A DNA stretch of 64,000 nt from an uncultured Verrucomicrobiae bacterium (GCA_963699145.1 OY969416.1:5150456-5214455); one strand, 5' to 3'; positions 4,361 to 59,925 are shown, counted from the first letter of the stretch. Numbers and translations: made by a program. Notes: generated from the letters alone by a model not told the origin.

Positions 4361-4383
4361 TTGGATGTTGGATGTTGGATGTT
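4361..4383. repeat. GGATGTT word repeat
   Basis: ttggatgttggatgttggatgtt belongs to the same word family as the long hairpin at 56967-57052. Confidence 0.7.
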
Positions 4384-40073: not shown

Positions 40074-41504
40074 TCACGGCGACTTCAGCCGATAAAACCT
40101 TTGCCGGCCCGAAATTCCATTCGTCACCGCATATTGCCCCGCAAGCGGATCCCACGTCCCGGCGAGATTCGTGGTCGTCTCCAAACTGAACCCCACCACG
40201 TCGGAAGGCCACGTCACCACCGCGTTCGTTCCGACCCGCGCGATGGATAGCGCCGGCGCAAAGCTAATCTTGAAAATAGAGCCCAATCCAAACATGCCAC
40301 CGTCGCTGGCCGTGCCATACAACACCCCATTGGTGTATAGCAAGCCGCCCACGGGATGCGCCCCGTCATTGTTCGTCCCTCCGCCATTGGGTCCCACGCC
40401 GTTCGTCGCGCTGAACTCATACAAGGTCGAAAAACCCGTGCCATCCGTGTTGATTTTAAAGAGCGTGCCGCTGCCGGAACCGCCTCCGGTAAACGTGGTC
40501 CCGTAAAGCACGTTGCCGGACAAAGCCAGGCCGGACTTGGGACGCGCCCCGCCTGCATTGATCCCGGCAGGCCCATTGGTTGTGGCAAAAGAATGCAGAA
40601 CAGTGAACGTCGTTCCGTTGGTATCGATCGCGAAAATCGTTCCGCCGCCCAACTTGCCGCCCTCTCCGGCTGTGCCATACAGATTCGTGCCCGAGAGAAC
40701 GAGATTGCACGATGGAAATGCTCCATCGCCATTGGTGAAGTCAGGGCCGGAATCAGGCGAAAAACTATAGAAGTTCGTGTAGCCGGTGCCGTTCGTGTTG
40801 ATCTTGAAAATCGTTCCGTTATGAAAAGTGCCGCCGCCCGGAGTCGTGCCGTAGAGAGCGCCGTCAGCGAATATCAAATCGGCGCTGGGATATTGCCCGT
40901 TCGTGAAATTGAAATTGTGCAGGTTGCTAAATCCTGTCCCGTTGGTGCTCAGGGCAAACAAAGTTCCCCATCCAAAAGCGCCGCCGCTATTCGCCGAGCC
41001 ATACAATTCTCCTCCCTGGAGAATCAATCCGGCGTCCGGATAAGCGCCCACATTATTCGTGAACGGAAACGTGCTGTCGGTGACCGGAAAACTGAACAGA
41101 TTGGTCAAACCCGAACCGTCAATGTTCATCGCAATCACACACCCGTAATTCGAGCCGCCGCCGAATGTCGCCGTGGTATAAAGCGTGTTTCCCGAAAGGA
41201 GCAGGCTGCCATTCATGTTGCCGCCCTCCGGTGCAATCGCCGAGAAAGTATGCAGGTTAGTGAAACCGGAACCATCGATATTCATCCGAAAAATGGAACC
41301 CTCTCCGCCTGCCGTCCCGCCGCCATAGATCCGGGTCGTTCCATACAGAGTGTTTCCGGACAAGAGCAAGCTGGCGACCGGGCCAGTGCCATTCGTGAAG
41401 GCCAAACTATGAAGCGCAGTGAAGACCTGCGCCCGGACTGAAAGATGCAAAAACAAAACCAAAGCCGCGATGCTGACCGAAAAACGCTTGCCAGTAATGG
41501 TCAT
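40074..41504 (-). CDS. Gloeo_Verruco (GloVer)-type tandem-repeat secreted protein
   Basis: The ATG at 41504 gives a signal peptide (MTITGKRFSVSIAALVLFLHLSVRAQ). About 8 repeats follow the pattern LHSF....G..P...L.L.GN.LYGTT..GG..G.GT.F.I.T.GTGFT. Confidence 0.8.
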   Translation of the reverse strand: MTITGKRFSVSIAALVLFLHLSVRAQVFTALHSLAFTNGTGPVASLLLSGNTLYGTTRIYGGGTAGGEGSIFRMNIDGSGFTNLHTFSAIAPEGGNMNGSLLLSGNTLYTTATFGGGSNYGCVIAMNIDGSGLTNLFSFPVTDSTFPFTNNVGAYPDAGLILQGGELYGSANSGGAFGWGTLFALSTNGTGFSNLHNFNFTNGQYPSADLIFADGALYGTTPGGGTFHNGTIFKINTNGTGYTNFYSFSPDSGPDFTNGDGAFPSCNLVLSGTNLYGTAGEGGKLGGGTIFAIDTNGTTFTVLHSFATTNGPAGINAGGARPKSGLALSGNVLYGTTFTGGGSGSGTLFKINTDGTGFSTLYEFSATNGVGPNGGGTNNDGAHPVGGLLYTNGVLYGTASDGGMFGLGSIFKISFAPALSIARVGTNAVVTWPSDVVGFSLETTTNLAGTWDPLAGQYAVTNGISGRQRFYRLKSP

Positions 41505-41586
41505 ACCGGAAATGTGCCTTTGCACACTGCAGGTGACGAGAAAATTCTGGCGCCAAACCCGGATAGCGAACGCCGGGTTGCGAGCG

Positions 41587-42549
41587 TTAACGATGCATCC
41601 CGCCACCGCCACCACCACCGCCGCCGTGGAATCCACCACCGCCGCCACCACCCATTCCGCCGTGGAACCCGCCACCGATTGTGCCGCCATGAAATCCTCC
41701 ACCACCGATCGCGGCGCCATGAAACCCTCCGCCAACCACGCTGCCGTGAAATCCCCCGCCCATTGGGGAACTATGAAAACTGCTTACCGAGCCGTGGAAA
41801 CCACTGGAGCTAACAGTTCCCGCGTGGAACCCTCCGCTGACCCCGGCATGAAATCCCGTGCTCCCATGAAATCCAGCATGAACTCCTCCGTCATGCACAT
41901 GGAAGCCGTCGTGGATAAAACCTCCATGCGGGAAGAAACAACCGTGCGCGTAAAAGACTCCGCCAAACCAGCACGGGAAGGGATAAAAGAATGGGCTCGC
42001 ATAATAGCCGCTGGCATAATAGTAAGGGTAATAAGGATACGGATTGCCATAATCCCCGCCGATGTAGGCCACCGTCGATGCCGGCGGCGTGGACGGCGGT
42101 GTCGCGTATGCGGAATCATCTGCGCCGGCAGAGTTGCCGGGCGGCATGTCGCTAATTACCGGCGCCTGGCTGGGATTGGCACTGCCCTGGTCCTGCGCAA
42201 TTGCGGCTGTATGAGCTTGATCGTGCAATTCACCGCCGCGTTCCAACATCGCAGTCAATACCGGTGTGGAAATACCCATATCACGCAGCTTGATAATCTC
42301 ATCGGCCGACGGCTGGAATGGCCCGGGCGAGTTTTTGATGAACGACAACACAATGGATTGATCCACACCAGACTTGCTCAACGCAACGATTTCGTTGATG
42401 CGTCCGGAAAACTGGGGAGCAGCGCTGGCAGGAACCGCGCTGACGGTATCGCTTGGTTGAGTGGGATTGGGTTCAATCGCGCGCGCGGCAAGGCTGACAC
42501 TGGCAACCAGGCCGCAAAGGGCAAAGAGTGACAAAAACCGCGTTTTCAT
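41587..42549 (-). CDS. secreted protein with Tyr/Pro-rich and (G)GFHG-repeat C-terminal low-complexity region
   Basis: The ATG at 42549 gives signal peptide MKTRFLSLFALCGLVASVSLAARA. The C-terminal ~110 aa consist of about eleven G-F-H units ending GGGGGGGFHGGGGGGGGGMHR. Confidence 0.6.
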   Translation of the reverse strand: MKTRFLSLFALCGLVASVSLAARAIEPNPTQPSDTVSAVPASAAPQFSGRINEIVALSKSGVDQSIVLSFIKNSPGPFQPSADEIIKLRDMGISTPVLTAMLERGGELHDQAHTAAIAQDQGSANPSQAPVISDMPPGNSAGADDSAYATPPSTPPASTVAYIGGDYGNPYPYYPYYYASGYYASPFFYPFPCWFGGVFYAHGCFFPHGGFIHDGFHVHDGGVHAGFHGSTGFHAGVSGGFHAGTVSSSGFHGSVSSFHSSPMGGGFHGSVVGGGFHGAAIGGGGFHGGTIGGGFHGGMGGGGGGGFHGGGGGGGGGMHR

Positions 42550-42719
42550 ACTATCCATTCGACGTTCCAAACTGGTTCAGTATTCAGAACATTCTGCAAA
42601 ATCAGAATACACCAGAAACCTCTGATTTTCAATGAAAAACGTTTTTTAAATGGAGCGTGGAATTCATTCCGCAAAAATGCAAATTACCATGGCTTGGGCC
42701 ATTCATTTTTAACGGGCAT

Positions 42720-52295: not shown

Positions 52296-55200
52296 TTAGG
52301 ACGCCCCGCCCTTCAACTGCCCCGTGACGCGCTCAATCCATTCGTTGCCGGGGCGCGCGTAGGGGCGGAACATTTCGGTGTAGCCTTCGCGGTCGTTGTA
52401 GTAGAGGGCGCGATGCATGCCGAGCGTGGCGGCGTCTGGGGAATCGATGAGGCTCGCGGAGTCGCTGGCGCTCATCTGGAAGAGGACGCGCATTTCGAAT
52501 TCGCTCAGGTTTTTGCGGCCGAGGAAACGGTTGATGTTGTTGAAGCTGTCGCAGGTGGCGATGACGTGGATTCCGTGGGCGGGACCGTCGCTGATCAAGC
52601 TCAACAAAATGCTCGCGGGGGAAGCTGTGTCCGTGGTGGAGAAACTGAACTCGTCTTCCTGGCGGAGCTTTTTGTAGTTCTGCAGATCCTGGATGAGCAC
52701 GAAGGTTTCCGGGCCGTTGTTCGATTGCTCATCGCCGCTGCGGCGTTTCAATTCTTCCGCGAGTGCGTTCATGGCGTCGCCCACGTCGCCGCCTTTGACG
52801 CGGGTGAGTTCGTGCGGAATGCCTTGCACGATGCGGTCGAGGAATTCGCGCTCGGGCGATTCGGGCGCCGTGCTGTCGAGCAAAACGAAGCGCACGGCGC
52901 CGCGCGGATATTGCGCGCTCAACGCGACCAGCGCCACAGCGAGCATGGAGAGTGAGGCTTCGGCATTCTGACCGACGACCAGCAGGTTGTTGCCGCTTTG
53001 TTTTTGGAACACGGCTTCGGTGGGGCCTTTGATGGAATTGGGCGCACCGAGCCAGGCGCGCGATTGTGCGAGGGCTTTCGCGGGTTTCGTTTCGAGAAAA
53101 ATGCGCAACGGGAGATTTTCGTTCACGTCGGCGGGCGCGTTACCTTCAAACACGAATGGGCCGGGAAAATTCTTGCCGGTGCGATCGGCGCGTTCGCGAA
53201 TTTGCGCGAGATAATTGTCGCGCACGCTCTCGGGCAGCCACACGGCCTGGAAGGGGCTGTTGCCTTCGATGGCGCCGGCGGAATCGTTGTAGATGCCTTC
53301 GCCGGGGCGCGAGAGCAAGCGCGGTGCGGGATTATCCTGGTCCATGATGAGGTAGGCGTCGGCTTCGTTGCATTGCAGCGCGATGCGAATCACCATCTGG
53401 CCGAGCGTGGCGCGCGCGAGGGTGTAAGCGCCGCCGAGCGTTTGCGAGCCGAGAATCACGTGGATGCCGAACGCGCGGCCCTGACGCACGATGCGGTCCA
53501 GCAGGACCGCCGCCTGTTGCGAGACGTGATCTTCCTCGGTGAAGAATTCCTGGAACTCGTCAATCATCAGCAGCGAGCGGGGCATGGGCTCCGTGCCGCC
53601 GGAACGTTTGTAACCGGCTACGTCCTGCACGCCTTGCGCGCGAAATAAATCACCGCGACGGCGCAATTCCATGTCGATGCGCTCCAGCACGCTCAGGCCG
53701 AATTGGCGATCGCTCTCGATGGCCACGACTCTCGCGTGCGGTAAATGGCGGTTGGCGTAGCTCTTGAACTCGACGCCTTTTTTGAAGTCGACGAGATAAA
53801 ATTCCACCTGCTCGGGGCTGCACCAGAGCGCGAGGTTGGTGATCATCACATGAAACAGCGTGGATTTGCCGGAACCAGTTTTGCCCGCGATAAGCGCGTG
53901 CTGGCGGGTGGCTTTGCCGATTTCGAGGTACTGCAATTTCGTGGCGCCCGAGCGGCCAATCGGCACGCGCAATTCCTGGCTGGTTTCCTCGCTCCAAATC
54001 TGGCCGTTTTTCGGCGCGATTTGTTCGAACGGCACTTCGACGCGATTGGAGTCCTTCCCTTTCTTGCCGACTTCACGCAGGAAATGCGTGGCGAATTCGG
54101 GCGACGGCGGCGGGTCGAGTTGGATTTGCGAGCCGGGCACACGCCAGTTCGCGAGCACGAAATCATTTTCGCGCCGCACGAGCGTGACGCTGTTTTTGCG
54201 CAGTTCATCCGCCACGAAATCCTGCGGCACCGCATTGCGCTGGTCCCAATGCATGAGCGTGTAAACGCCGCAACGCGCGCCGCTGGTGGCGATGTTGCGC
54301 AGCCGCTTGGCGGCGGTGTCGCTGAAGTTCACGGGGAATGAGGCGATGACGAGGATGTGATATTTTTCCGCGATGGTGCCGGCCTGCGCGTTGTATTCAG
54401 CGATGGTCTCGTATTCGTTGCGCAGATACATCTGGATGACTTTTTCCATGTGCTCGTTCAACTCGGCGAGCTTCTCCTCGAACTGCGCCGCTTGCGTCCA
54501 GATGCGGCTGTTGATGTGGCTCTCCTCGAAGTCGGCGAGGTGCATGAGGCCGGCGAAATTCTGGCCGAGGCCGACGGGATCGAAAATCGTGAAGCTTAAT
54601 TTCCCGGCGGGGTTCGTCGAGAGCAGCCGGAAAATAATGTTGTTGATGGCGGCGATGGCCTCCTCGTGGCCGACTTTCGGCGTCTCAAAAAGAATGGAGC
54701 CTTGCAGCGGATAGGTCAGGAGCAGCGGCACGGAGAAGTTGGCGGGGCCGGGCAACGCGAGGCGCGGGTCTTTCGGCATGGCTTCGGCGGCCTTGGACAT
54801 ATCGACGTCCAGCGAGCCGAACTTGGCGGCGTTTTTGAATTCGAGCGGCGGATCCCAGTCTTTCCAGAGCGGAATTTCCCACGGCGGAAACATTTTTTCC
54901 GAGAACTCATTCGCGGCGCGAATGGAAGCGTAAATGGGTTCCACGATGCCCTTCCATTCGGCGACCATCGCGTCCCACAGGCCCTTAAATTCCGACTCAA
55001 GCCGGCTCATTTTCGCGCGATGCGTGTCTAACATTTCCTTCGCTTCCGCATCCGTGCCTGAGCGCAACCGCGCGAGGGTCAGGGTGCGGTCGCGTTCGAC
55101 TTCGCGCATGCGCTGGTCGTGAGTGGCTTCGTTTTTCGCAAAGGCGCGGCGGGCTTTTTCGTCGACTTTGACCGGGCGGGTGCCGCGCAATTCGATGGCG

Positions 55201-56183
55201 TCCTTCACCGATTGTTTCCATTTCTGGTTCATCGCGGCGATGGCATCGGCGGTTTCATTGCGGAGGCGGACTTGTTCGTGCTGATTGGTCGCCTTCGCCT
55301 TGTCCAAACACGCCCCCATGAGCCAGCGGGATTTGGCGAGGTTGCCGGCAATCTCCCGGGCGCGCTCGCTCGCCTGTGAACCGCCCACGAGGTAGACAAT
55401 GAAGACCAGCACGAAGACGCCGGCGGAAATACCGGCATACATCATGGGGATATTTTTAATGCCCATTTGCGGCAGGAAGGGCACCGCAACCGCAAAACCC
55501 AGCAGCAAGATTGCCCAGAGCCAGATCGGCAGGGCGCGAAAAATCGAGGCTGGAAAGAGGCCGCGGAATTTTCCGATATCATCGCCGGCTTTTTTTTCCA
55601 ACCGGTTCAGCTCGTCGAGCAGTTGGTTTTCGTCGCCGGACAAATCGGGCTGCGGCCATTCGCGGTCGGGGGCGAGGAATTTGCGAAAGCGGCCGTAGCC
55701 GCCGAAGGCGTTGTGCGCCGAAACTTCCAATTCCGCGAAGCGATTCTGGCTTTCGCCGACGCGGCGGTTGAAATCTTCGAAGGCGGCGGCGGTCGCGGTC
55801 AACTTTTCATCGCGCACGCGTTCGGCCTCGAGCGAGCCGGTCTGGACGCTGTATTTGATGTCGGCTTCCTGCTGGGTGATTGCGTCCAGAACGCGTTTGC
55901 GGGCGTTGATGTGCGCCTGGTTCAAGCGCGCCTTGCGCTGCTCGAACCCGGTGTTGATCCGGCTGCTGGTGGCGTCAAAATCAGCAGTGGTTTTGGCGAT
56001 TGTTTCCGTCGCGGTTGTGGATTGCGCGCCTTTCGCGGTATCGAACGCCCTGGTTTCCACGGCGGAGCGCGTGCGGAAATCGGCGTTTAATTTTTCTTCG
56101 CGCGCGGCGAAATCGCGCAGCGCGTTTTTCAGCGTCTCCAACAACGCTACCATGTCCTTGGCACCAAAATTATTATTACTCAC
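52296..56183 (-). CDS. membrane-anchored FtsK/SpoIIIE-family ATPase with three P-loop-type modules (EssC/EccC-like)
   Basis: 1295 aa. There are two TM helices at aa ~217-268 (nt 55380-55535). The intact Walker A is IAGKTGSGKST (GKTGSGKS = 53862-53885) and the Walker B is LLMIDEFQEF. Degenerate FtsK-like modules flank the active one. The GTG start overlaps the stop of the upstream small gene. Confidence 0.9.
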   Translation of the reverse strand: MSNNNFGAKDMVALLETLKNALRDFAAREEKLNADFRTRSAVETRAFDTAKGAQSTTATETIAKTTADFDATSSRINTGFEQRKARLNQAHINARKRVLDAITQQEADIKYSVQTGSLEAERVRDEKLTATAAAFEDFNRRVGESQNRFAELEVSAHNAFGGYGRFRKFLAPDREWPQPDLSGDENQLLDELNRLEKKAGDDIGKFRGLFPASIFRALPIWLWAILLLGFAVAVPFLPQMGIKNIPMMYAGISAGVFVLVFIVYLVGGSQASERAREIAGNLAKSRWLMGACLDKAKATNQHEQVRLRNETADAIAAMNQKWKQSVKDAIELRGTRPVKVDEKARRAFAKNEATHDQRMREVERDRTLTLARLRSGTDAEAKEMLDTHRAKMSRLESEFKGLWDAMVAEWKGIVEPIYASIRAANEFSEKMFPPWEIPLWKDWDPPLEFKNAAKFGSLDVDMSKAAEAMPKDPRLALPGPANFSVPLLLTYPLQGSILFETPKVGHEEAIAAINNIIFRLLSTNPAGKLSFTIFDPVGLGQNFAGLMHLADFEESHINSRIWTQAAQFEEKLAELNEHMEKVIQMYLRNEYETIAEYNAQAGTIAEKYHILVIASFPVNFSDTAAKRLRNIATSGARCGVYTLMHWDQRNAVPQDFVADELRKNSVTLVRRENDFVLANWRVPGSQIQLDPPPSPEFATHFLREVGKKGKDSNRVEVPFEQIAPKNGQIWSEETSQELRVPIGRSGATKLQYLEIGKATRQHALIAGKTGSGKSTLFHVMITNLALWCSPEQVEFYLVDFKKGVEFKSYANRHLPHARVVAIESDRQFGLSVLERIDMELRRRGDLFRAQGVQDVAGYKRSGGTEPMPRSLLMIDEFQEFFTEEDHVSQQAAVLLDRIVRQGRAFGIHVILGSQTLGGAYTLARATLGQMVIRIALQCNEADAYLIMDQDNPAPRLLSRPGEGIYNDSAGAIEGNSPFQAVWLPESVRDNYLAQIRERADRTGKNFPGPFVFEGNAPADVNENLPLRIFLETKPAKALAQSRAWLGAPNSIKGPTEAVFQKQSGNNLLVVGQNAEASLSMLAVALVALSAQYPRGAVRFVLLDSTAPESPEREFLDRIVQGIPHELTRVKGGDVGDAMNALAEELKRRSGDEQSNNGPETFVLIQDLQNYKKLRQEDEFSFSTTDTASPASILLSLISDGPAHGIHVIATCDSFNNINRFLGRKNLSEFEMRVLFQMSASDSASLIDSPDAATLGMHRALYYNDREGYTEMFRPYARPGNEWIERVTGQLKGGAS

Positions 56184-56388
56184 AATCTTGTTGGACCTTT
56201 TTCAATAGTTCATCGAGTTTTTCCACCACGCCGACCGTTTTGTCGACGCCGGCGAACAGTTCCTGCAAATATTTCCGCTCGAACTCCTGGGCTTTAGCGT
56301 CGCGCCAGTAATTTTTCGTGTCCTCCCATTTCAAGGAAAGCTCTTTCGACAGGCCGACCAGGCGCGCTTTGCTGCCGGACATGCTCAT
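56176..56388 (-). CDS. 70-aa helical WXG100-like protein (W-x-D variant)
   Basis: MSMSGSKARLVGLSKELSLKWEDTKNYWRDAKAQEFERKYLQELF... A strong SD (AAGGAGG) lies 7 nt upstream. There is an ATGA overlap with the upstream gene and an 8-nt overlap with the ATPase start. Confidence 0.65.
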   Translation of the reverse strand: MSMSGSKARLVGLSKELSLKWEDTKNYWRDAKAQEFERKYLQELFAGVDKTVGVVEKLDELLKKVQQDCE

Positions 56389-56945
56389 GGGGTTCCCTCC
56401 TTTGGCGGTTCGGGCGCGCCAGACGGCTCCGCGGGAGTTTCGGGAGGCGGCGAGGCATCGCCGGCGCTGCCCATGCGGACGTCGGCGTAGGCTTCGAGCG
56501 AGCGAACGACGTTGTTGAGATAGGCAAGCGCCTTGGGCCCCTCGCTGGTCACGAAACTTTGGAATTGATCCACCTGTTTGACCAGGGGTTCGGAGCGATT
56601 CTCCAACTCGCGATCCCACTTTTTCAACAGGGCGAGTTTTTCCTGCGCTTCATCACAAGCCTGCTTGGCGCGGCGCACCAACAACTGTTGCGCGGACGAA
56701 ATCTCCTGAAATTTCGACATGGAAACGCTGAACAACTCCGCCTGGGCGCGCTCCAATTTTTTGCCGCGCGCTTTCATTTCGCCTTCCCACTTACGGCGCT
56801 GGTCGTTTTGGAGCCATTGCTTGGCGCGGGCGACTTCGTTGGCCATTTCCTCCAACGCGGGGCGCGCTTTGCTCAAGTAAATGACCAAGGCCGATCGAAA
56901 AGCCTCGATGGCTTCGACGGAAGTAACTTGAGCGCGATCGGCCAT
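56385..56945 (-). CDS. 186-aa all-helical protein with W-E-G motif and Pro-rich tail
   Basis: The ATG at 56945 gives MADRAQVTSVEAIEAFRSAL...QWLQNDQRRKWEGEMKARGKKLERAQAEL... The tail is PPPETPAEPSGAPEPPKEGTP. Confidence 0.65.
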   Translation of the reverse strand: MADRAQVTSVEAIEAFRSALVIYLSKARPALEEMANEVARAKQWLQNDQRRKWEGEMKARGKKLERAQAELFSVSMSKFQEISSAQQLLVRRAKQACDEAQEKLALLKKWDRELENRSEPLVKQVDQFQSFVTSEGPKALAYLNNVVRSLEAYADVRMGSAGDASPPPETPAEPSGAPEPPKEGTP

Positions 56946-56966: not shown

Positions 56967-57052
56967 AACATCCAACAACCAACATCGAACATCCAATGAC
57001 TCCAACACGCCAAATCTGGATGTTGGATGTTCGATGTTGGTTGTTGGATGTT
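56967..57052. repeat. 30-bp perfect inverted repeat (GGATGTT word family) inside the operon
   Basis: aacatccaacaaccaacatcgaacatccaa (56967-56996) is the exact reverse complement of 57023-57052, with a 26-nt loop. It lies between the first and second genes of the operon. Confidence 0.9.
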
Positions 57053-57059
57053 CCCATTC

Positions 57060-57332
57060 CTATCGTTGATTAAGATACTCCTCAATCCGTTGCGCCTTGC
57101 GCAGCAGATACGGCGTGTGCTCCTTGGAGAGGTCGATGAATTTTTTCAGCGCTTTCATCGCGGTCTTGAATTCATCGGCAAATTTCGCGTGCTCCTGGTC
57201 GCCCCAGGTGTCGCCGAGGGCGGCGAAACGCGCGTGCAGGAGGGTGAGGCGGTTTTCGAGATCGGTGTTGAATCGCTGCAATTCGTCCGCGAAGCGGCGG
57301 ACTTTCTCGGGATCCATGATTGCCTGGGCCAT
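57060..57332 (-). CDS. 90-aa WXG100-superfamily-like helical hairpin protein (W-G-D variant)
   Basis: MAQAIMDPEKVRRFADELQRFNTDLENRLTLLHARFAALGDTWGDQEHAKFADEFKTAMKALKKFIDLSKEH... An SD (GAAAGGAA) precedes the ATG at 57332. Size and helix-turn-helix layout match WXG100. Confidence 0.7.
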   Translation of the reverse strand: MAQAIMDPEKVRRFADELQRFNTDLENRLTLLHARFAALGDTWGDQEHAKFADEFKTAMKALKKFIDLSKEHTPYLLRKAQRIEEYLNQR

Positions 57333-57738: not shown

Positions 57739-57891
57739 CACCAGGGTTCGGGGAGGTTTCTACGATTCATCCGGGGAGGACATTCGTCACTTATTAGCTC
57801 ATCGACAATGCCTGTGAATAAATCTTATCTTATTTCAGTAGACAATTTATATTTTTTTTATATTCATTGTCGCCCGAATCTGCAAACCACT

Positions 57892-59925
57892 ATGAAAAAG
57901 ACGAGTCTTGTTCTTTGTACCGTTTGTTTGTTGGCCTTCCAATCCGCGTTCGCGGAGCCATCCACGATCTCGGGCGATTTCTTTGCTGCGCTGCGCAATG
58001 GTGATGCGCGGGGGATTCGCCAGGCGCTCGACAGCGGCGCTTCGGTCAAAGCGCATGATGAGCGCGGCAATACGCCTCTAATGCTCGCGGCGGTTTATGG
58101 CGACGTGGCTTCGATGAAACTGCTTTTGGAACGCGGCGCGCAGGTGAATGTGGCCAATGCGGAAGGCGCGACTCCGCTGATTCGCGCGGCGTATGATTTT
58201 GACAAGGCGCGCTTGCTCGTGGAGCGCGGCGCCGATGTGAACGCTCGCTCGGCGATGGGCCAGACGGCATTGATGCTGGCGGCGCGACCGGTTAATTCGC
58301 ATCGCACGGTGAAACTGTTGCTCGACCACGGCGCAGATGCGAAGGCCACGAATAATTGGGGCGCGACCACGCTGATGGCTGCGGCGGCTGGCGGGGATGT
58401 GGAAACGGCGCGGTTGCTCATCGAGCACGGAGCGGATGTGAACGCACAACCGATCCCGGACCACGTGGCGTTTATTTTCAATGGCGCGCGGACGCCGTTG
58501 ATGTGGGCGGCGTATCGCGGCGATTTGGCCATGATCAAGACGTTGATCGCGGCCGGAGCGGATGTGAACGCGGAAGGCACGCTGGGAACGCCGCTGGAGC
58601 AAGCGACGTGGAATGATTCCCTGGAGGCATGCAAATATTTGCTGGAGCACCATGCGAATCCAAATTACGTCTCGCATTTCGACACTTTCACGGCGCTGCA
58701 TTGGGCGTCTTCAACGGAGCAACCGGATGCGCGCATGGTCAGCCTGTTGCTGGCGCATGGCGCGAATCCCAACATCGGCGGTGGTGAAAGCGTGGATGCT
58801 TTTCTCAGCGTGGACCAGACGCCGCTGATGCTCGCGCGGCGTCGCGGCGAGACGCCGATTGTCAAAGCGCTGCTGGCGGCGGGCGCGACCAATGAAACGC
58901 CGGACACTATTTCCAGCGTGACGGCGCCCGCTCGCGCGCTGCCGGCGCGGCTGGATGGCGAAACGGTTCGTTCGGCGATGGCGCGCGCGGTGGGGCCGTT
59001 GCAGACGACGGCGTTGGAATCGAAAAAGGTTTTCGTGAGCCATTCGAGTCACCAGGACTGCGTCTCGTGCCATCAACAATATTTGCCGCTCGCCGCGACC
59101 AGCCTGGCGCGCAAACAGAATGTGGCGGTCGATAGCGAGGCGAACCGCGACCTTATTAAATTGGTCAGCGGCGGTGAGTTGCCGTTGATTGAAGTGGATT
59201 GGCAGCCGCTTTTCCATCCGGACCCGGCGTATGCGAAAGGATATTCCATGCTCGCTTTTTCGCTATCCGATTTGCCGGCGAGCGAATTCACCGACGCGTG
59301 GGTGCATCATCTCGCGGCCATCCAGGAAGCCGACGGCCGTTGGTGCAGCAATCTTCCGCGTCCGCCGATCCAATCCGGCGACATTCCGGCGACTGCACTC
59401 GTGATCAATGCGCTGCAAAAATATCCATTGCCCGGCCGCAAGGCGGAATTCGCGGAACGCGTGGAGCGCGCGGGCAAGTGGCTCGCGAAAGCGAAAACCG
59501 ACAACACCGACGAGGCGATTTACCAAATCCTCGGGCTGAAATGGGCCGGGGAATCGCCCCGGCACATTCAACCGCTCGCGAAGGCGTTGCTGGCGCAACA
59601 GCGCGCGGACGGCGGCTGGGCGCAATTGCCGACGTTGAAGAGCGATGCTTACGCAACCGGCCAGGCGGTTTATTCGTTGTGCGTGGGCGCGGGAATTCCG
59701 ACGAACGATCCGGCCATCGAACGCGCGCGCAAATATTTGCTCGCCACGCAACTCGAGGACGGCACGTGGTATGTGCATCGCCGCGCGTTTCCGTTTCAGC
59801 CGACGATGAAGAGCGGGTTTCCGCATGGGCGTGATGGTTGGATTTCAGCGGCGGGAACAAGTTGGGCGGTGATGGCGCTGAGTTTGCCGGCGCCGGAGAC
59901 GCAGGTGGCGGCGAAGGCGCCGTGA
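57892..59925 (+). CDS. secreted ankyrin-repeat protein with CXXCH motif and prenyltransferase/squalene-cyclase-like alpha-alpha toroid repeats
   Basis: The ATG at 57892 gives signal peptide MKKTSLVLCTVCLLAFQSAFA. Multiple ANK repeats follow (GNTPLMLAA, GATPLIRAA, GQTALMLAA and others). CVSCH lies at 59059-59073. QW-like repeats are QEADGRWCS, QRADGGWAQ and QLEDGTWY. Confidence 0.8.
   Translation: MKKTSLVLCTVCLLAFQSAFAEPSTISGDFFAALRNGDARGIRQALDSGASVKAHDERGNTPLMLAAVYGDVASMKLLLERGAQVNVANAEGATPLIRAAYDFDKARLLVERGADVNARSAMGQTALMLAARPVNSHRTVKLLLDHGADAKATNNWGATTLMAAAAGGDVETARLLIEHGADVNAQPIPDHVAFIFNGARTPLMWAAYRGDLAMIKTLIAAGADVNAEGTLGTPLEQATWNDSLEACKYLLEHHANPNYVSHFDTFTALHWASSTEQPDARMVSLLLAHGANPNIGGGESVDAFLSVDQTPLMLARRRGETPIVKALLAAGATNETPDTISSVTAPARALPARLDGETVRSAMARAVGPLQTTALESKKVFVSHSSHQDCVSCHQQYLPLAATSLARKQNVAVDSEANRDLIKLVSGGELPLIEVDWQPLFHPDPAYAKGYSMLAFSLSDLPASEFTDAWVHHLAAIQEADGRWCSNLPRPPIQSGDIPATALVINALQKYPLPGRKAEFAERVERAGKWLAKAKTDNTDEAIYQILGLKWAGESPRHIQPLAKALLAQQRADGGWAQLPTLKSDAYATGQAVYSLCVGAGIPTNDPAIERARKYLLATQLEDGTWYVHRRAFPFQPTMKSGFPHGRDGWISAAGTSWAVMALSLPAPETQVAAKAP

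What the first reader, a model, noticed from the sequence alone, without database searches (positions are those of the whole stretch)
52296..56183. Unusual ATPase architecture: coiled-coil N-domain, 2 TM, then degenerate / active / degenerate FtsK modules
Seen in the sequence: aa 1-215 are helical and charged with no motif I can assign. I see no FHA-like signature as in EssC. Two hydrophobic helices follow: ALPIWLWAILLLGFAVAVPFLP and MMYAGISAGVFVLVFIVYLVGG (nt 55380-55535). A second helical region spans aa ~270-480, and three ~250-aa modules come after it. Only the middle module has a canonical Walker A, GKTGSGKS (53862-53885), and Walker B, LLMIDEFQEF. Module 1 has ETPKVGHEEA at the P-loop position and HILVIASFP at the Walker B position. 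Module 3 has VVGQNAEASLS and FVLIQDLQ. Established knowledge: EssC/EccC proteins carry a degenerate ATPase-like DUF followed by three modules, D1-D3, with substrate recognition at the C-terminal module. Inference: this protein is a shortened relative with DUF-like, D1-like and one regulatory or substrate-binding module, plus a novel N-terminal domain.
Basis: partly seen in the sequence, partly recalled or inferred. Interest (0 to 1): 0.65.

Follow-up and report, generated by a model that had tools for sequence, protein, structure and literature searches.

The report
Minimal WXG100-linked three-module FtsK-like ATPase

Summary
ORF 52296-56183(-) encodes 1295 aa: a long N-terminal helix, a two-helix TM hairpin, a second long helix, then three FtsK-like modules. 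Only module 2 has Walker A (GKTGSGKS) and Walker B (LLMIDEF). AlphaFold2 (pLDDT 87) with Foldseek (EccC 4nh0, E 5e-32), together with profile comparisons, shows all three modules are FtsK/EccC-like. There is no gamma domain and no FHA domain.

The gene ends a four-gene operon: WXG100, a 186-aa helical protein, a 70-aa WXG-like protein, then the ATPase. The order is the same in 70 of 80 related loci and in a Planctomycetota relative. No other flanking gene is conserved.

The architecture is not new. Zhang et al. [quoted passage not shown] Bell et al. 2024 (PMC11090510) described relatives with N-terminal coiled coils over 200 residues.

Not found in the papers I could search: the TM hairpin at the tip of a ~150-residue antiparallel helical stalk, the apparently vertical spread in the two phyla, and a WXG100 more conserved than the ATPase. 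The most likely role is a minimal inner-membrane exporter of helical-hairpin proteins, unproven. Interest is moderate to low.

The parts
52296..56183 (-). ATPase gene, 1295 aa from GTG 56183 (alternative ATG at 56153 gives 1285 aa, as in the database copy)
   Evidence: Pfam FtsK_SpoIIIE 113.9 bits
55707..56162 (-). N-terminal long amphipathic helix, aa 8-159 (cytoplasmic arm 1 of the predicted antiparallel stalk)
   Evidence: AF2 pLDDT mostly above 90; 3.65-residue periodicity, 0/2000 shuffles; sequence identity only 13-24% in distant homologues; position of TM1, and so the length of the N-terminal region, conserved
55470..55535 (-). TM helix 1, aa 217-238
   Evidence: hydropathy above 1.6; AF2 helix 220-236
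55380..55445 (-). TM helix 2, aa 247-268, separated from TM1 by an 8-residue loop
   Evidence: basic residues flank both cytoplasmic ends (read from the sequence)
54891..55379 (-). Post-TM2 helix, aa 269-431, continuous with TM2 (arm 2 of the stalk)
   Evidence: AF2 helix 247-431, also seen as H2-32 of the second model; periodicity 3.65; TM2-to-Walker-A distance median 513, SD 9
54057..54830 (-). Module 1, aa ~452-709: degenerate FtsK-like fold with no Walker A lysine; the Walker B position reads LVIASFP (family consensus LVIADFP)
53181..53972 (-). Module 2, aa ~738-1001: the only catalytically competent FtsK-like module (Walker A K773, Walker B D875/E876)
53862..53885 (-). Walker A GKTGSGKS
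   Evidence: invariant in 51 sequences
53553..53573 (-). Walker B LLMIDEF
   Evidence: D-E-F-Q invariant
52308..53063 (-). Module 3, aa ~1041-1292: degenerate FtsK-like fold (VGQNAEAS at the P-loop position, LIQDLQ at Walker B), with a highly conserved C-terminal half
   Evidence: hhalign vs module 2 97.9%, E 5e-13
56176..56388 (-). p70: 70-aa helical protein with invariant W21, W28, D30, F36, C69 and a C-terminal D-C-E. Probably a WXG100-like partner without the WXG motif. Its ATG overlaps the stop codon of p186
   Evidence: conserved in 74/80 loci; p70 profile hits a bona fide WXG100 of a Caballeronia plasmid (17 bits, E 3e-6 in a 16-sequence search); no Pfam or PDB family
56385..56945 (-). 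p186: 186-aa helical protein with a Pro/Ala/Ser/Glu-rich disordered tail; no known family
   Evidence: conserved in 72/80 loci in the same position
57060..57332 (-). WXG100-family protein, 90 aa; the hinge motif is W-G-D here and W-Q-D in the family
   Evidence: Pfam WXG100 40.2 bits, cut-off 27.3; best solved relative H. pylori HP0062, E 1.6e-4, full length; 64-90% identical across 70 loci
56967..57052 (-). 30-bp perfect inverted repeat (RNA hairpin followed by a U-rich tract) between the WXG100 gene and p186
   Evidence: dG -59 kcal/mol, z -7

Best explanation
This is the ATPase of a stand-alone, four-gene 'minimal' WXG100/FtsK-like module: WXG100, p186, p70 and the ATPase. It belongs to the clade of WXG-linked three-domain ATPases noted in 2012 and 2024.

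Shown here:
- The protein has a TM hairpin and two ~150-residue amphipathic helices on either side of it.
- It has three FtsK-like modules, of which only the middle, D1-like one keeps its catalytic motifs.
- It is always encoded next to three small helical proteins that lack signal peptides.

Inferred:
- Both termini are cytoplasmic.
- The two long helices pair into a ~20-nm antiparallel stalk, with the membrane hairpin at one end and the ATPase modules at the other.
- As in FtsK, EccC and EssC, the protein forms a hexamer through module 2, whose ATP hydrolysis is the only power source.
- Modules 1 and 3 act as structural or receptor domains. Module 3 is the best candidate to dock the near-invariant C-terminal tail of the WXG100 protein (P-Y-L-L-R-K-A-Q-R-I-E-E-Y-L), as EccC D3 docks EsxB.
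- The machine moves folded helical-hairpin complexes (WXG100, p70, p186) across the cytoplasmic membrane into the periplasm of these diderm bacteria.
For: Fold and homology of the three modules. Single Walker A/B. TM hairpin and helices. Foldseek neighbours of the N-terminal model are antiparallel coiled coils (Rad50, MukB elbow, chemoreceptor, dynein stalk). The WXG100 passes the Pfam cut-off and its nearest solved relative is HP0062. HP0062 is the WXG100 of the H. pylori WXG100/FtsK pair, which PMC4978471 calls a minimal type VII set. Operon order is conserved in 70/80 loci and in a Phycisphaerales relative. No other gene is conserved within +/-8 kb. The N- and C-termini of the WXG100 are near-invariant, as expected for a docking signal. 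Established knowledge, cited in PMC11217815: a T7SS is defined by an EccC/EssC ATPase plus a WXG100 protein, WXG100 C-terminal signals bind ATPase domains, and LXG substrates need small helical partners, some of which lack the WXG motif.
Against: No secretion has been shown for any member of this clade. The predicted stalk would hold the ATPase ring about 20 nm from the membrane, unlike EccC/EssC, where the ring lies under the pore. The operon encodes no other membrane protein, no ubiquitin-like EsaB/YukD component and no outer-membrane component. Close relatives on plasmids have no TM segment (Caballeronia, 927 aa) or only one weak hydrophobic peak (Rhodococcus). The CoCoNuT-linked relatives also lack TM helices, so the clade does not need a membrane to function. 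The WXG100 is more conserved than the ATPase in 70 of 70 loci (median 72% vs 50%); I read this as fitting a structural or regulatory core subunit better than an exported effector. The helix pairing and the hexamer are model-based inferences; I could not inspect coordinates.
Confidence: 0.5

Rival explanations
1. It is not an exporter. The ATPase and the three helical proteins form a cytoplasmic-face complex. The WXG100-like proteins are regulatory or structural subunits, and the coiled coil is a scaffold or signal-transmitting stalk, as in chemoreceptors or the dynein stalk. The complex would serve stress response or anti-phage defence, as proposed for the TerY-P/CoCoNuT-linked relatives, or a housekeeping envelope process specific to these phyla.
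For: TM-less relatives with the same three modules and a homologous WXG100 sit in vWA/PP2C/kinase/CARF neighbourhoods on plasmids. PMC11090510 says a mechanism different from EssC is likely for these. The WXG100 is more conserved than the motor. The ATPase is predicted to lie far from the membrane. PADLOC gives only P-loop-level hits to SspH, mad8 and HerA.
Against: The family represented here keeps a TM hairpin in most members: 239 of 256 sequences have at least 2 hydrophobic peaks. No defence, vWA, kinase or nuclease gene is linked in 80 loci. The window neighbours are housekeeping genes such as PolA and an EF-G-like gene. Identity to the window protein falls with taxonomic distance, which fits vertical descent rather than a defence island.
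Confidence: 0.3
2. It is a DNA translocase of the FtsK/SpoIIIE/TraB/TcpA type, used in chromosome segregation or conjugation.
For: FtsK motor domains and the conjugation coupling protein TcpA are structural neighbours. JGI annotations call homologues 'DNA segregation ATPase'.
Against: There is no gamma or winged-helix domain; the chain ends right after module 3. Module 2 scores far higher against EccCa and EssC than against FtsK (122 and 90 vs 38 bits). The gene is strictly linked to a WXG100 gene. No relaxase, integrase or other mobile-element gene is linked. The N-terminus has two TM helices and a coiled coil, not the FtsK four-TM domain.
Confidence: 0.05
3. One reading: a recently shortened EssC/EccC that kept DUF, D1 and one distal module and gained a novel N-terminal domain.
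For: The positional analogy holds: a degenerate first module after the stalk, then a D1-like active module.
Against: The same three-module order occurs in distant lineages: Actinomycetota, Betaproteobacteria, Deinococcus and Helicobacter plasmids, plus Planctomycetota. The design is therefore old and clade-wide. Modules 1 and 3 show no specific similarity to the EccC/EssC DUF, D2 or D3. The N-terminal coiled coil is shared with described relatives.
Confidence: 0.1

Closest known systems
[quoted passage not shown] 2012, PMC3482391, Table 1 footnote 6; per PMC4978471 and PMC11090510, also treated in Anantharaman et al. 2012, which I could not read)
   Same: It has three FtsK-like domains with only the central one active, an adjacent solo WXG100 gene, and occurs in Verrucomicrobia and Planctomycetes. 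This is the family to which the window protein belongs.
   Different: The literature calls these 'mobile versions of T7SS'. Here the operon sits among housekeeping genes with no mobility genes, and identity falls with taxonomic distance across two phyla, which fits vertical descent. The TM hairpin, the stalk geometry and the p186/p70 genes are not mentioned in the passages I could read.
EssC-like ATPases attached to Type III-A CoCoNuT/TerY-P defence operons (Bell et al. 2024, PMC11090510)
   Same: [quoted passage not shown] The Caballeronia plasmid example shares homologous modules 1-3 and a homologous WXG100.
   Different: Those proteins lack TM helices and sit between vWA genes with a coiled-coil nuclease, a DNA-mimic-like protein, and kinase, phosphatase and CARF genes. 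The protein here has a TM hairpin inside the coiled coil, and none of those partners is linked. p186 has no nuclease domain.
EccC (T7SSa) and EssC (T7SSb) secretion ATPases
   Same: They are FtsK/SpoIIIE-family ATPases with two TM helices before tandem ATPase-like domains and a co-encoded WXG100 protein. EccC is the best sequence and structure match (4nh0, 7np7, 4lya). Module 2 resembles D1.
   Different: EccC has four nucleotide-binding-type domains; this protein has three, and only one is active. The scores are far below the NCBIfam equivalog cut-offs (120 vs 778, 118 vs 509, 96 vs 347). There are no FHA domains. A ~150-residue helical stalk lies on both sides of the TM hairpin. No EssA/EssB/EsaA/EsaB or EccB/D/E/MycP genes are nearby. 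The hosts are diderm bacteria.
H. pylori HP0062 (WXG100, PDB 3fx7/2gts) with the HP0066 FtsK/SpoIIIE protein
   Same: HP0062 is the closest solved relative of the window's WXG100: it aligns over its full length and has a W-R-D hinge rather than W-x-G. In H. pylori it is paired with an FtsK/SpoIIIE gene as a 'WXG100 secretion system'.
   Different: Sequence similarity is low (25 bits). I did not examine the architecture of HP0066.
LXG-Lap and PE-PPE substrate complexes of T7SS
   Same: In these, a longer helical protein is combined with one or two ~70-100-aa helical-hairpin partners, some lacking the WXG motif. That matches the sizes and gene order of p186, p70 and WXG100.
   Different: There is no sequence similarity to the LXG, Lap, PE or PPE families. 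p186 has no toxin domain. This is an analogy only.

Membership tests
EssC/EccC type VII secretion ATPase | FtsK/SpoIIIE ATPase domain with Walker A and B | tested here: met
   Pfam PF01580 113.9 bits (cut-off 24), aa 736-914; motifs located
EssC/EccC type VII secretion ATPase | Two TM helices N-terminal to the ATPase domains | tested here: met
   aa 217-238 and 247-268
EssC/EccC type VII secretion ATPase | Four tandem nucleotide-binding-type domains (DUF, D1, D2, D3) | tested here: not met
   The AF2 model has only three modules. About 815 residues follow the stalk.
EssC/EccC type VII secretion ATPase | Score above the NCBIfam equivalog cut-offs (TIGR03928, TIGR03924, TIGR03925) | tested here: not met
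   120.5 vs 778.4, 118.2 vs 509.2, 96.1 vs 346.6 bits
EssC/EccC type VII secretion ATPase | N-terminal FHA domains (EssC only) | tested here: not met
   No FHA hit in Pfam; the N-terminus is a single long helix
EssC/EccC type VII secretion ATPase | Co-encoded WXG100 protein | tested here: met
   57060-57332(-), Pfam WXG100 40.2 bits vs 27.3; conserved in 70/80 loci
EssC/EccC type VII secretion ATPase | Accessory core components nearby (EssA/EssB/EsaA/EsaB or EccB/EccD/EccE/MycP) | tested here: not met
   Neighbour ORFs show no such Pfam families. No further conserved gene family lies within +/-8 kb in 80 loci. The rest of the genome was not available.
EssC/EccC type VII secretion ATPase | ATPase-dependent secretion of WXG100 substrates | not testable with these tools
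   Needs an experiment
WXG-linked three-domain FtsK/HerA ATPase clade (Zhang 2012; Bell 2024) | Three FtsK/HerA-like domains | tested here: met
WXG-linked three-domain FtsK/HerA ATPase clade (Zhang 2012; Bell 2024) | Only the central domain keeps the catalytic motifs | tested here: met
WXG-linked three-domain FtsK/HerA ATPase clade (Zhang 2012; Bell 2024) | Adjacent solo WXG100 gene; Verrucomicrobia and Planctomycetes among the hosts | tested here: met
WXG-linked three-domain FtsK/HerA ATPase clade (Zhang 2012; Bell 2024) | Long N-terminal coiled coil instead of FHA domains | tested here: met
   Helix aa 8-159; periodicity
WXG-linked three-domain FtsK/HerA ATPase clade (Zhang 2012; Bell 2024) | Second WXG100-like protein without the WXG motif | tested here: inconclusive
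   The p70 profile hits the Caballeronia WXG100 at 17 bits. hhalign against the operon's own WXG100 gives only E 0.056, though it aligns at the W-x-D hinge. There is no Pfam hit, and no structure was predicted.
WXG-linked three-domain FtsK/HerA ATPase clade (Zhang 2012; Bell 2024) | Direct homology of all three modules to plasmid or defence-linked members | tested here: met
   Module 1, 2 and 3 profiles hit the Rhodococcus and Caballeronia plasmid proteins in the same order (i-E 5e-34/7e-32, 7e-86/5e-76, 2e-28/9e-11)
WXG-linked three-domain FtsK/HerA ATPase clade (Zhang 2012; Bell 2024) | No TM helices (stated for the CoCoNuT-linked subgroup); mobile element context | tested here: not met
   A TM hairpin is present here and in most relatives sampled. 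No mobility or defence genes are linked. This separates a subgroup; it does not exclude the protein from the clade.
FtsK/SpoIIIE DNA translocases | C-terminal gamma (KOPS-binding winged-helix) domain and a single alpha/beta motor | tested here: not met
   The chain ends 3 residues after module 3. The FtsK equivalog scores 35.5 bits against a cut-off of 1566.
WXG100 family (for the 90-aa upstream protein) | ~100-aa protein passing the Pfam PF06013 threshold | tested here: met
   40.2 bits vs 27.3; also annotated in the Planctomycetota locus
WXG100 family (for the 90-aa upstream protein) | W-x-G hinge motif | tested here: not met
   The hinge is T-W-G-D here and T-W-Q-D in the family consensus. 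HP0062 has W-R-D.

The most novel reading that the evidence does not exclude
In Verrucomicrobiota and Planctomycetota this four-gene module is a vertically inherited, housekeeping protein-export or envelope machine of a new mechanical type. Six TM hairpins would form the membrane pore. Twelve long amphipathic helices would form a ~20-nm cytoplasmic stalk, possibly a TolC-like alpha-barrel conduit or a registry-shifting transmission rod. This stalk would couple a single-motor ATPase ring to the membrane. The ultra-conserved WXG100 would be an essential structural partner rather than an effector. That would make it the simplest known T7SS-like system and the first shown to work in LPS-type diderm bacteria.
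Probability: 0.15. Interest if true: 0.75.

Novelty: new member of a known kind. Interest (0 to 1): 0.38.

Why it matters
A recent T7SS survey says these systems are found across Bacillota and Actinomycetota (PMC11217815). The WXG-linked three-domain ATPases outside those phyla appear, in the papers I could search, only as a table footnote (2012) and as an accessory of defence operons (2024). No experiment on them turned up. This window shows that one subgroup is a membrane-anchored, stand-alone four-gene operon found in at least 594 species-level genomes. The 80 best loci are nearly all Verrucomicrobiota, and it also occurs in Planctomycetota. Its WXG100 partner is under stronger constraint than the motor. 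If it exports proteins, it would define the minimal component set of a type VII-like system and extend that system to diderm bacteria. If it does not, it would show that WXG100/FtsK pairs have a non-secretory core function, which bears on how the defence-linked relatives work. Either outcome is testable with one knockout and one Walker A mutant.

Tried and rejected
- **Sequence assignment of modules 1 and 3 to DUF, D2 or D3.** The module 1 profile found nothing relevant in the PDB. Module 3 alone gave only EccCb at E 9e-4, plus chance calmodulin hits. No assignment is possible.
- **p70 and p186 against Pfam and the PDB.** Only chance coiled-coil hits came back. hhalign of p70 or p186 against the operon's own WXG100 was not significant (E about 0.05).
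- **Defence-system reading from PADLOC.** The hits to SspH, mad8, HerA and ZorA cover only the P-loop module or a coiled-coil stretch. I rejected them as evidence of membership.
- **Foldseek on the N-terminal model.** It returned only generic antiparallel coiled coils at E about 1e-3 with TM-scores of 0.16-0.31. This is useful for geometry but not for homology.
- **Length covariation between the two stalk arms.** The correlation was r = 0.05, which neither supports nor refutes pairing. Start-codon uncertainty adds noise to the N-terminal arm length.
- **Search for further conserved neighbours.** All-vs-all clustering of ORFs from 80 loci found nothing beyond the four genes; the next family occurs in at most 6 of 80 loci. 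The crude ORF filter also produced antisense artefact clusters, which I ignored.
- **Paralogues in the window.** There are none.
- **Literature.** Sutcliffe 2011 could not be read and is cited only through PMC6471051. I did not try to fetch Anantharaman 2012; it is cited only through PMC4978471 and PMC11090510.

Full report
**1. The observation**

ORF 52296-56183 on the minus strand encodes 1295 aa from a GTG codon. The database copy starts at Met11 and is 1285 aa.
- two hydrophobic helices, aa 217-238 and 247-268;
- one canonical Walker A, GKTGSGKS, aa 767-774;
- one Walker B, LLMIDEF, aa 871-877;
- degenerate counterparts in the flanking modules.

Pfam gives one strong FtsK_SpoIIIE match (aa 736-914, 113.9 bits) and no FHA domain. 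NCBIfam matches EssC, EccCa and EccCb far below their cut-offs. The best solved relatives by sequence are EccC of T. curvata, EccC5 and YukB.

**2. The three modules**

AlphaFold2 on aa 400-1295, with a 51-sequence alignment, gave a confident model (pLDDT 87.3, pTM 0.74). It has three tandem alpha/beta modules at aa ~452-709, 738-1001 and 1041-1292, and it ends three residues after the last helix.

Foldseek against the PDB puts the whole model on the three-domain cytoplasmic part of EccC (4nh0, E 5e-32, 960 columns). The next hits are EccC and EssC D2-D3, the FtsK motor and TcpA.

Profile comparisons within the family:
- module 3 vs module 2: 97.9% probability, E 5e-13;
- module 1 vs module 3: 91% probability, E 1e-6;
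- 17 of 18 module-1 sequences weakly match Pfam FtsK_SpoIIIE.

All three modules are therefore FtsK-like, and there is no gamma domain.

Module 2 alone scores best against the D1 part of EccCa (122.5 bits). EssC follows with 90 bits, EccCb D2 with 85 and FtsK with 38. Modules 1 and 3 cannot be assigned to DUF, D2 or D3 by sequence.

**3. The N-terminal half**

AlphaFold2 on aa 1-480 (pLDDT 88.3) predicts these elements in order:
- one continuous helix, aa 8-159;
- short helices;
- TM1;
- an 8-residue loop;
- a continuous helix, aa 247-431, which begins as TM2.

Both long helices show the same amphipathic period of 3.65 residues, and 0 of 2000 shuffles reach the observed power. The Foldseek neighbours are antiparallel coiled coils: Rad50, the MukB elbow, a chemoreceptor and the dynein stalk. 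This match is weak and generic.

Sequence identity in this half falls to 13-24% in distant homologues, yet lengths are conserved. The TM1 centre has a median position of 226 (SD 15). The distance from TM2 to Walker A has a median of 513 (SD 9).

My inference is an antiparallel stalk of roughly 150 residues, about 20 nm long. The membrane hairpin sits at one end, and the N-terminus and ATPase modules at the other. Both ends are cytoplasmic, because basic residues flank the cytoplasmic sides of both TM helices. I could not inspect the coordinates, so the pairing of the two helices is not directly shown.

**4.

Three genes lie directly upstream on the same strand. The last two junctions overlap: the ATG of p70 overlaps the p186 stop, and the GTG start of the ATPase overlaps the end of p70.
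- **WXG100** (57060-57332): a 90-aa protein that passes the Pfam WXG100 cut-off (40.2 vs 27.3 bits). Its closest solved relative is H. pylori HP0062.
- **p186** (56385-56945): a helical protein with a disordered tail.
- **p70** (56176-56388): a small helical protein.

A scan of species-representative genomes found at least 594 loci that encode a relative. The 80 best are nearly all Verrucomicrobiota. In 70 of those 80 loci the order WXG100, p186, p70, ATPase is identical. Most of the remaining loci lack upstream sequence, but L003 has 8 kb upstream and no match to any of the three genes. No other gene family recurs in the flanks; the next most frequent occurs in at most 6 of 80 loci.

More distant relatives of the same length are labelled Planctomycetota. 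One Phycisphaerales contig carries the same four genes: 90, 211, 72 and 1306 aa.

The WXG100 is more conserved than the ATPase in all 70 loci, with median identity 72% vs 50%. Its N- and C-termini are near-invariant, and its hinge is W-Q-D rather than W-x-G.

p70 has an invariant set of residues (W21, W28, D30, F36, C69) and ends in D-C-E. Its profile weakly detects a bona fide WXG100 protein. Neither p70 nor p186 matches any Pfam family or solved structure.

**5. What is already known**

- Zhang et al. [quoted passage not shown] - Bell et al. 2024 (PMC11090510) describe EssC homologues attached to CoCoNuT/TerY-P defence operons. These have three ATPase domains with only the central one active. 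[quoted passage not shown] Two WXG100-type proteins accompany them, one lacking the motif. The authors note that the WXG100/FtsK operon also occurs as a stand-alone system.
- PMC4978471 calls the WxG/FtsK pair a minimal type VII set and names the H. pylori paralogues HP0062 and HP0066.
- Sutcliffe 2011 reported WXG100 proteins in Verrucomicrobia; I know this only through PMC6471051.
- The 2024 survey of T7SS subtypes a-j covers only Bacillota and Actinomycetota, and it describes EccC as having four nucleotide-binding domains.

I confirmed the family link directly. tblastn against plasmids finds Rhodococcus, Deinococcus, Caballeronia and Helicobacter proteins that align across the modules. Profiles of modules 1, 2 and 3 hit the Rhodococcus and Caballeronia proteins in the same order. 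The Caballeronia WXG100 is clearly homologous.

The Caballeronia protein has 927 aa and no TM segment. It sits among vWA, PP2C, kinase and CARF genes.

**6. What is added here**

I found none of these points in the papers I could search:
- In the family sampled here the coiled coil is split by a TM hairpin, so the ATPase is membrane-anchored. 239 of 256 sequences have at least 2 hydrophobic peaks.
- The module is a stand-alone four-gene operon. In the window it lies among housekeeping genes such as PolA and an EF-G-like gene, and no mobility or defence genes are linked.
- Identity to the window protein falls with taxonomic distance: roughly 55-64% in loci labelled Limisphaerales or Pedosphaera, 46-50% in Chthoniobacterales and Verrucomicrobiales, and about 41-42% in Planctomycetota. 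This fits vertical descent rather than mobility.
- The WXG100 partner is under stronger constraint than the motor.

**7. Mechanism**

The best-supported reading is a minimal type VII-like exporter (confidence about 0.5). A hexamer would be driven by module 2. Degenerate modules 1 and 3 would serve as scaffold and receptor. Substrates would be folded helical-hairpin complexes of WXG100, p70 and p186, delivered to the periplasm.

The main rival is a non-secretory complex on the cytoplasmic face, with a defence, stress or envelope role (about 0.3). Three things support it: the TM-less relatives, the predicted 20-nm gap between ring and membrane, and the unusually conserved WXG100.

A DNA-translocase role is unlikely (about 0.05). 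There is no gamma domain, module 2 is much closer to EccC than to FtsK, and the gene is strictly linked to a WXG100 gene.

**8. Verdict**

The core architecture has already been described computationally, so this is a new, membrane-anchored member of a known but experimentally untouched kind. Interest is moderate to low (0.38). A more novel reading, the stalk-coupled minimal exporter in diderm bacteria, remains open at about 15% probability.

Noticed in passing
window 56967-57052 (also 56960-56995/57017-57052) and 4362-4383: A 30-bp perfect inverted repeat built from the heptamer TGGATGT/AACATCC lies between the WXG100 stop and the p186 start. As RNA it folds at -59 kcal/mol (z -7) and is followed by a U-rich tract. 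It could attenuate or stabilise the transcript so that WXG100 is made in excess. The same heptamer repeat occurs in tandem at 4362-4383, so it may be a genome-wide repeat element. Many related loci have only a 7-10-nt gap at this position, so the hairpin is not a conserved part of the operon.
   Followed up: partly
window 56176-56388 (-), p70: The 70-aa protein ends in a near-invariant Asp-Cys-Glu. Cys69 is invariant in 30 sequences, as are W21, W28, D30 and F36. A conserved penultimate cysteine in a small helical protein is unexplained; it could be a docking signal, a metal ligand or a modification site.
   Followed up: partly
window 57060-57332 (-) and loci L001-L080: The WXG100 protein is more conserved than its ATPase in 70 of 70 loci (median 72% vs 50% identity). 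Its first ~20 and last ~17 residues are almost invariant across the phylum. My own expectation was that T7SS substrates diverge faster than the motor; I did not check this against other systems.
   Followed up: yes
L083 (Caballeronia plasmid NZ_CP049321.1) 2528-13461; L082 (Rhodococcus plasmid NZ_CP126457.1): Plasmid-borne relatives have the same three-module ATPase. The Caballeronia one has no TM segment (927 aa); the Rhodococcus one has a single weak hydrophobic peak. In Caballeronia the gene order is vWA, WXG100, 436-aa, 113-aa, 76-aa, ATPase, DUF1887 CARF, vWA, PP2C, Ser/Thr kinase, AAA. In Rhodococcus the ATPase lies next to TerD-family genes, and its WXG100-like gene lies downstream of the ATPase.
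   Followed up: partly
window 57808-59925 (+): A 705-aa protein is transcribed divergently from the operon. It has a signal-peptide-like N-terminus, about eight ankyrin repeats and a C-terminal squalene-hopene-cyclase-like (terpenoid cyclase/prenyltransferase) repeat region. It is not conserved next to the operon in other genomes.
   Followed up: no
window 41587-42570 (-) and 40074-41735 (-): Two unusual ORFs lie here. The first is a 327-aa protein whose C-terminal half is Gly/His-rich with repeated GGFHG units and ends in a poly-Gly run. The second is a 553-aa protein made of repeats of the type 'GTxFxxxxDGSGFTxLHxF', followed by a C-terminal sorting-like domain.
   Followed up: no
window 56153-56183: The start codon of the ATPase is ambiguous. 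The GTG at 56183 overlaps the end of p70, which suggests translational coupling. The public protein copy starts at the ATG at 56153 (Met11). Family alignments become conserved only from about residue 12.
   Followed up: partly
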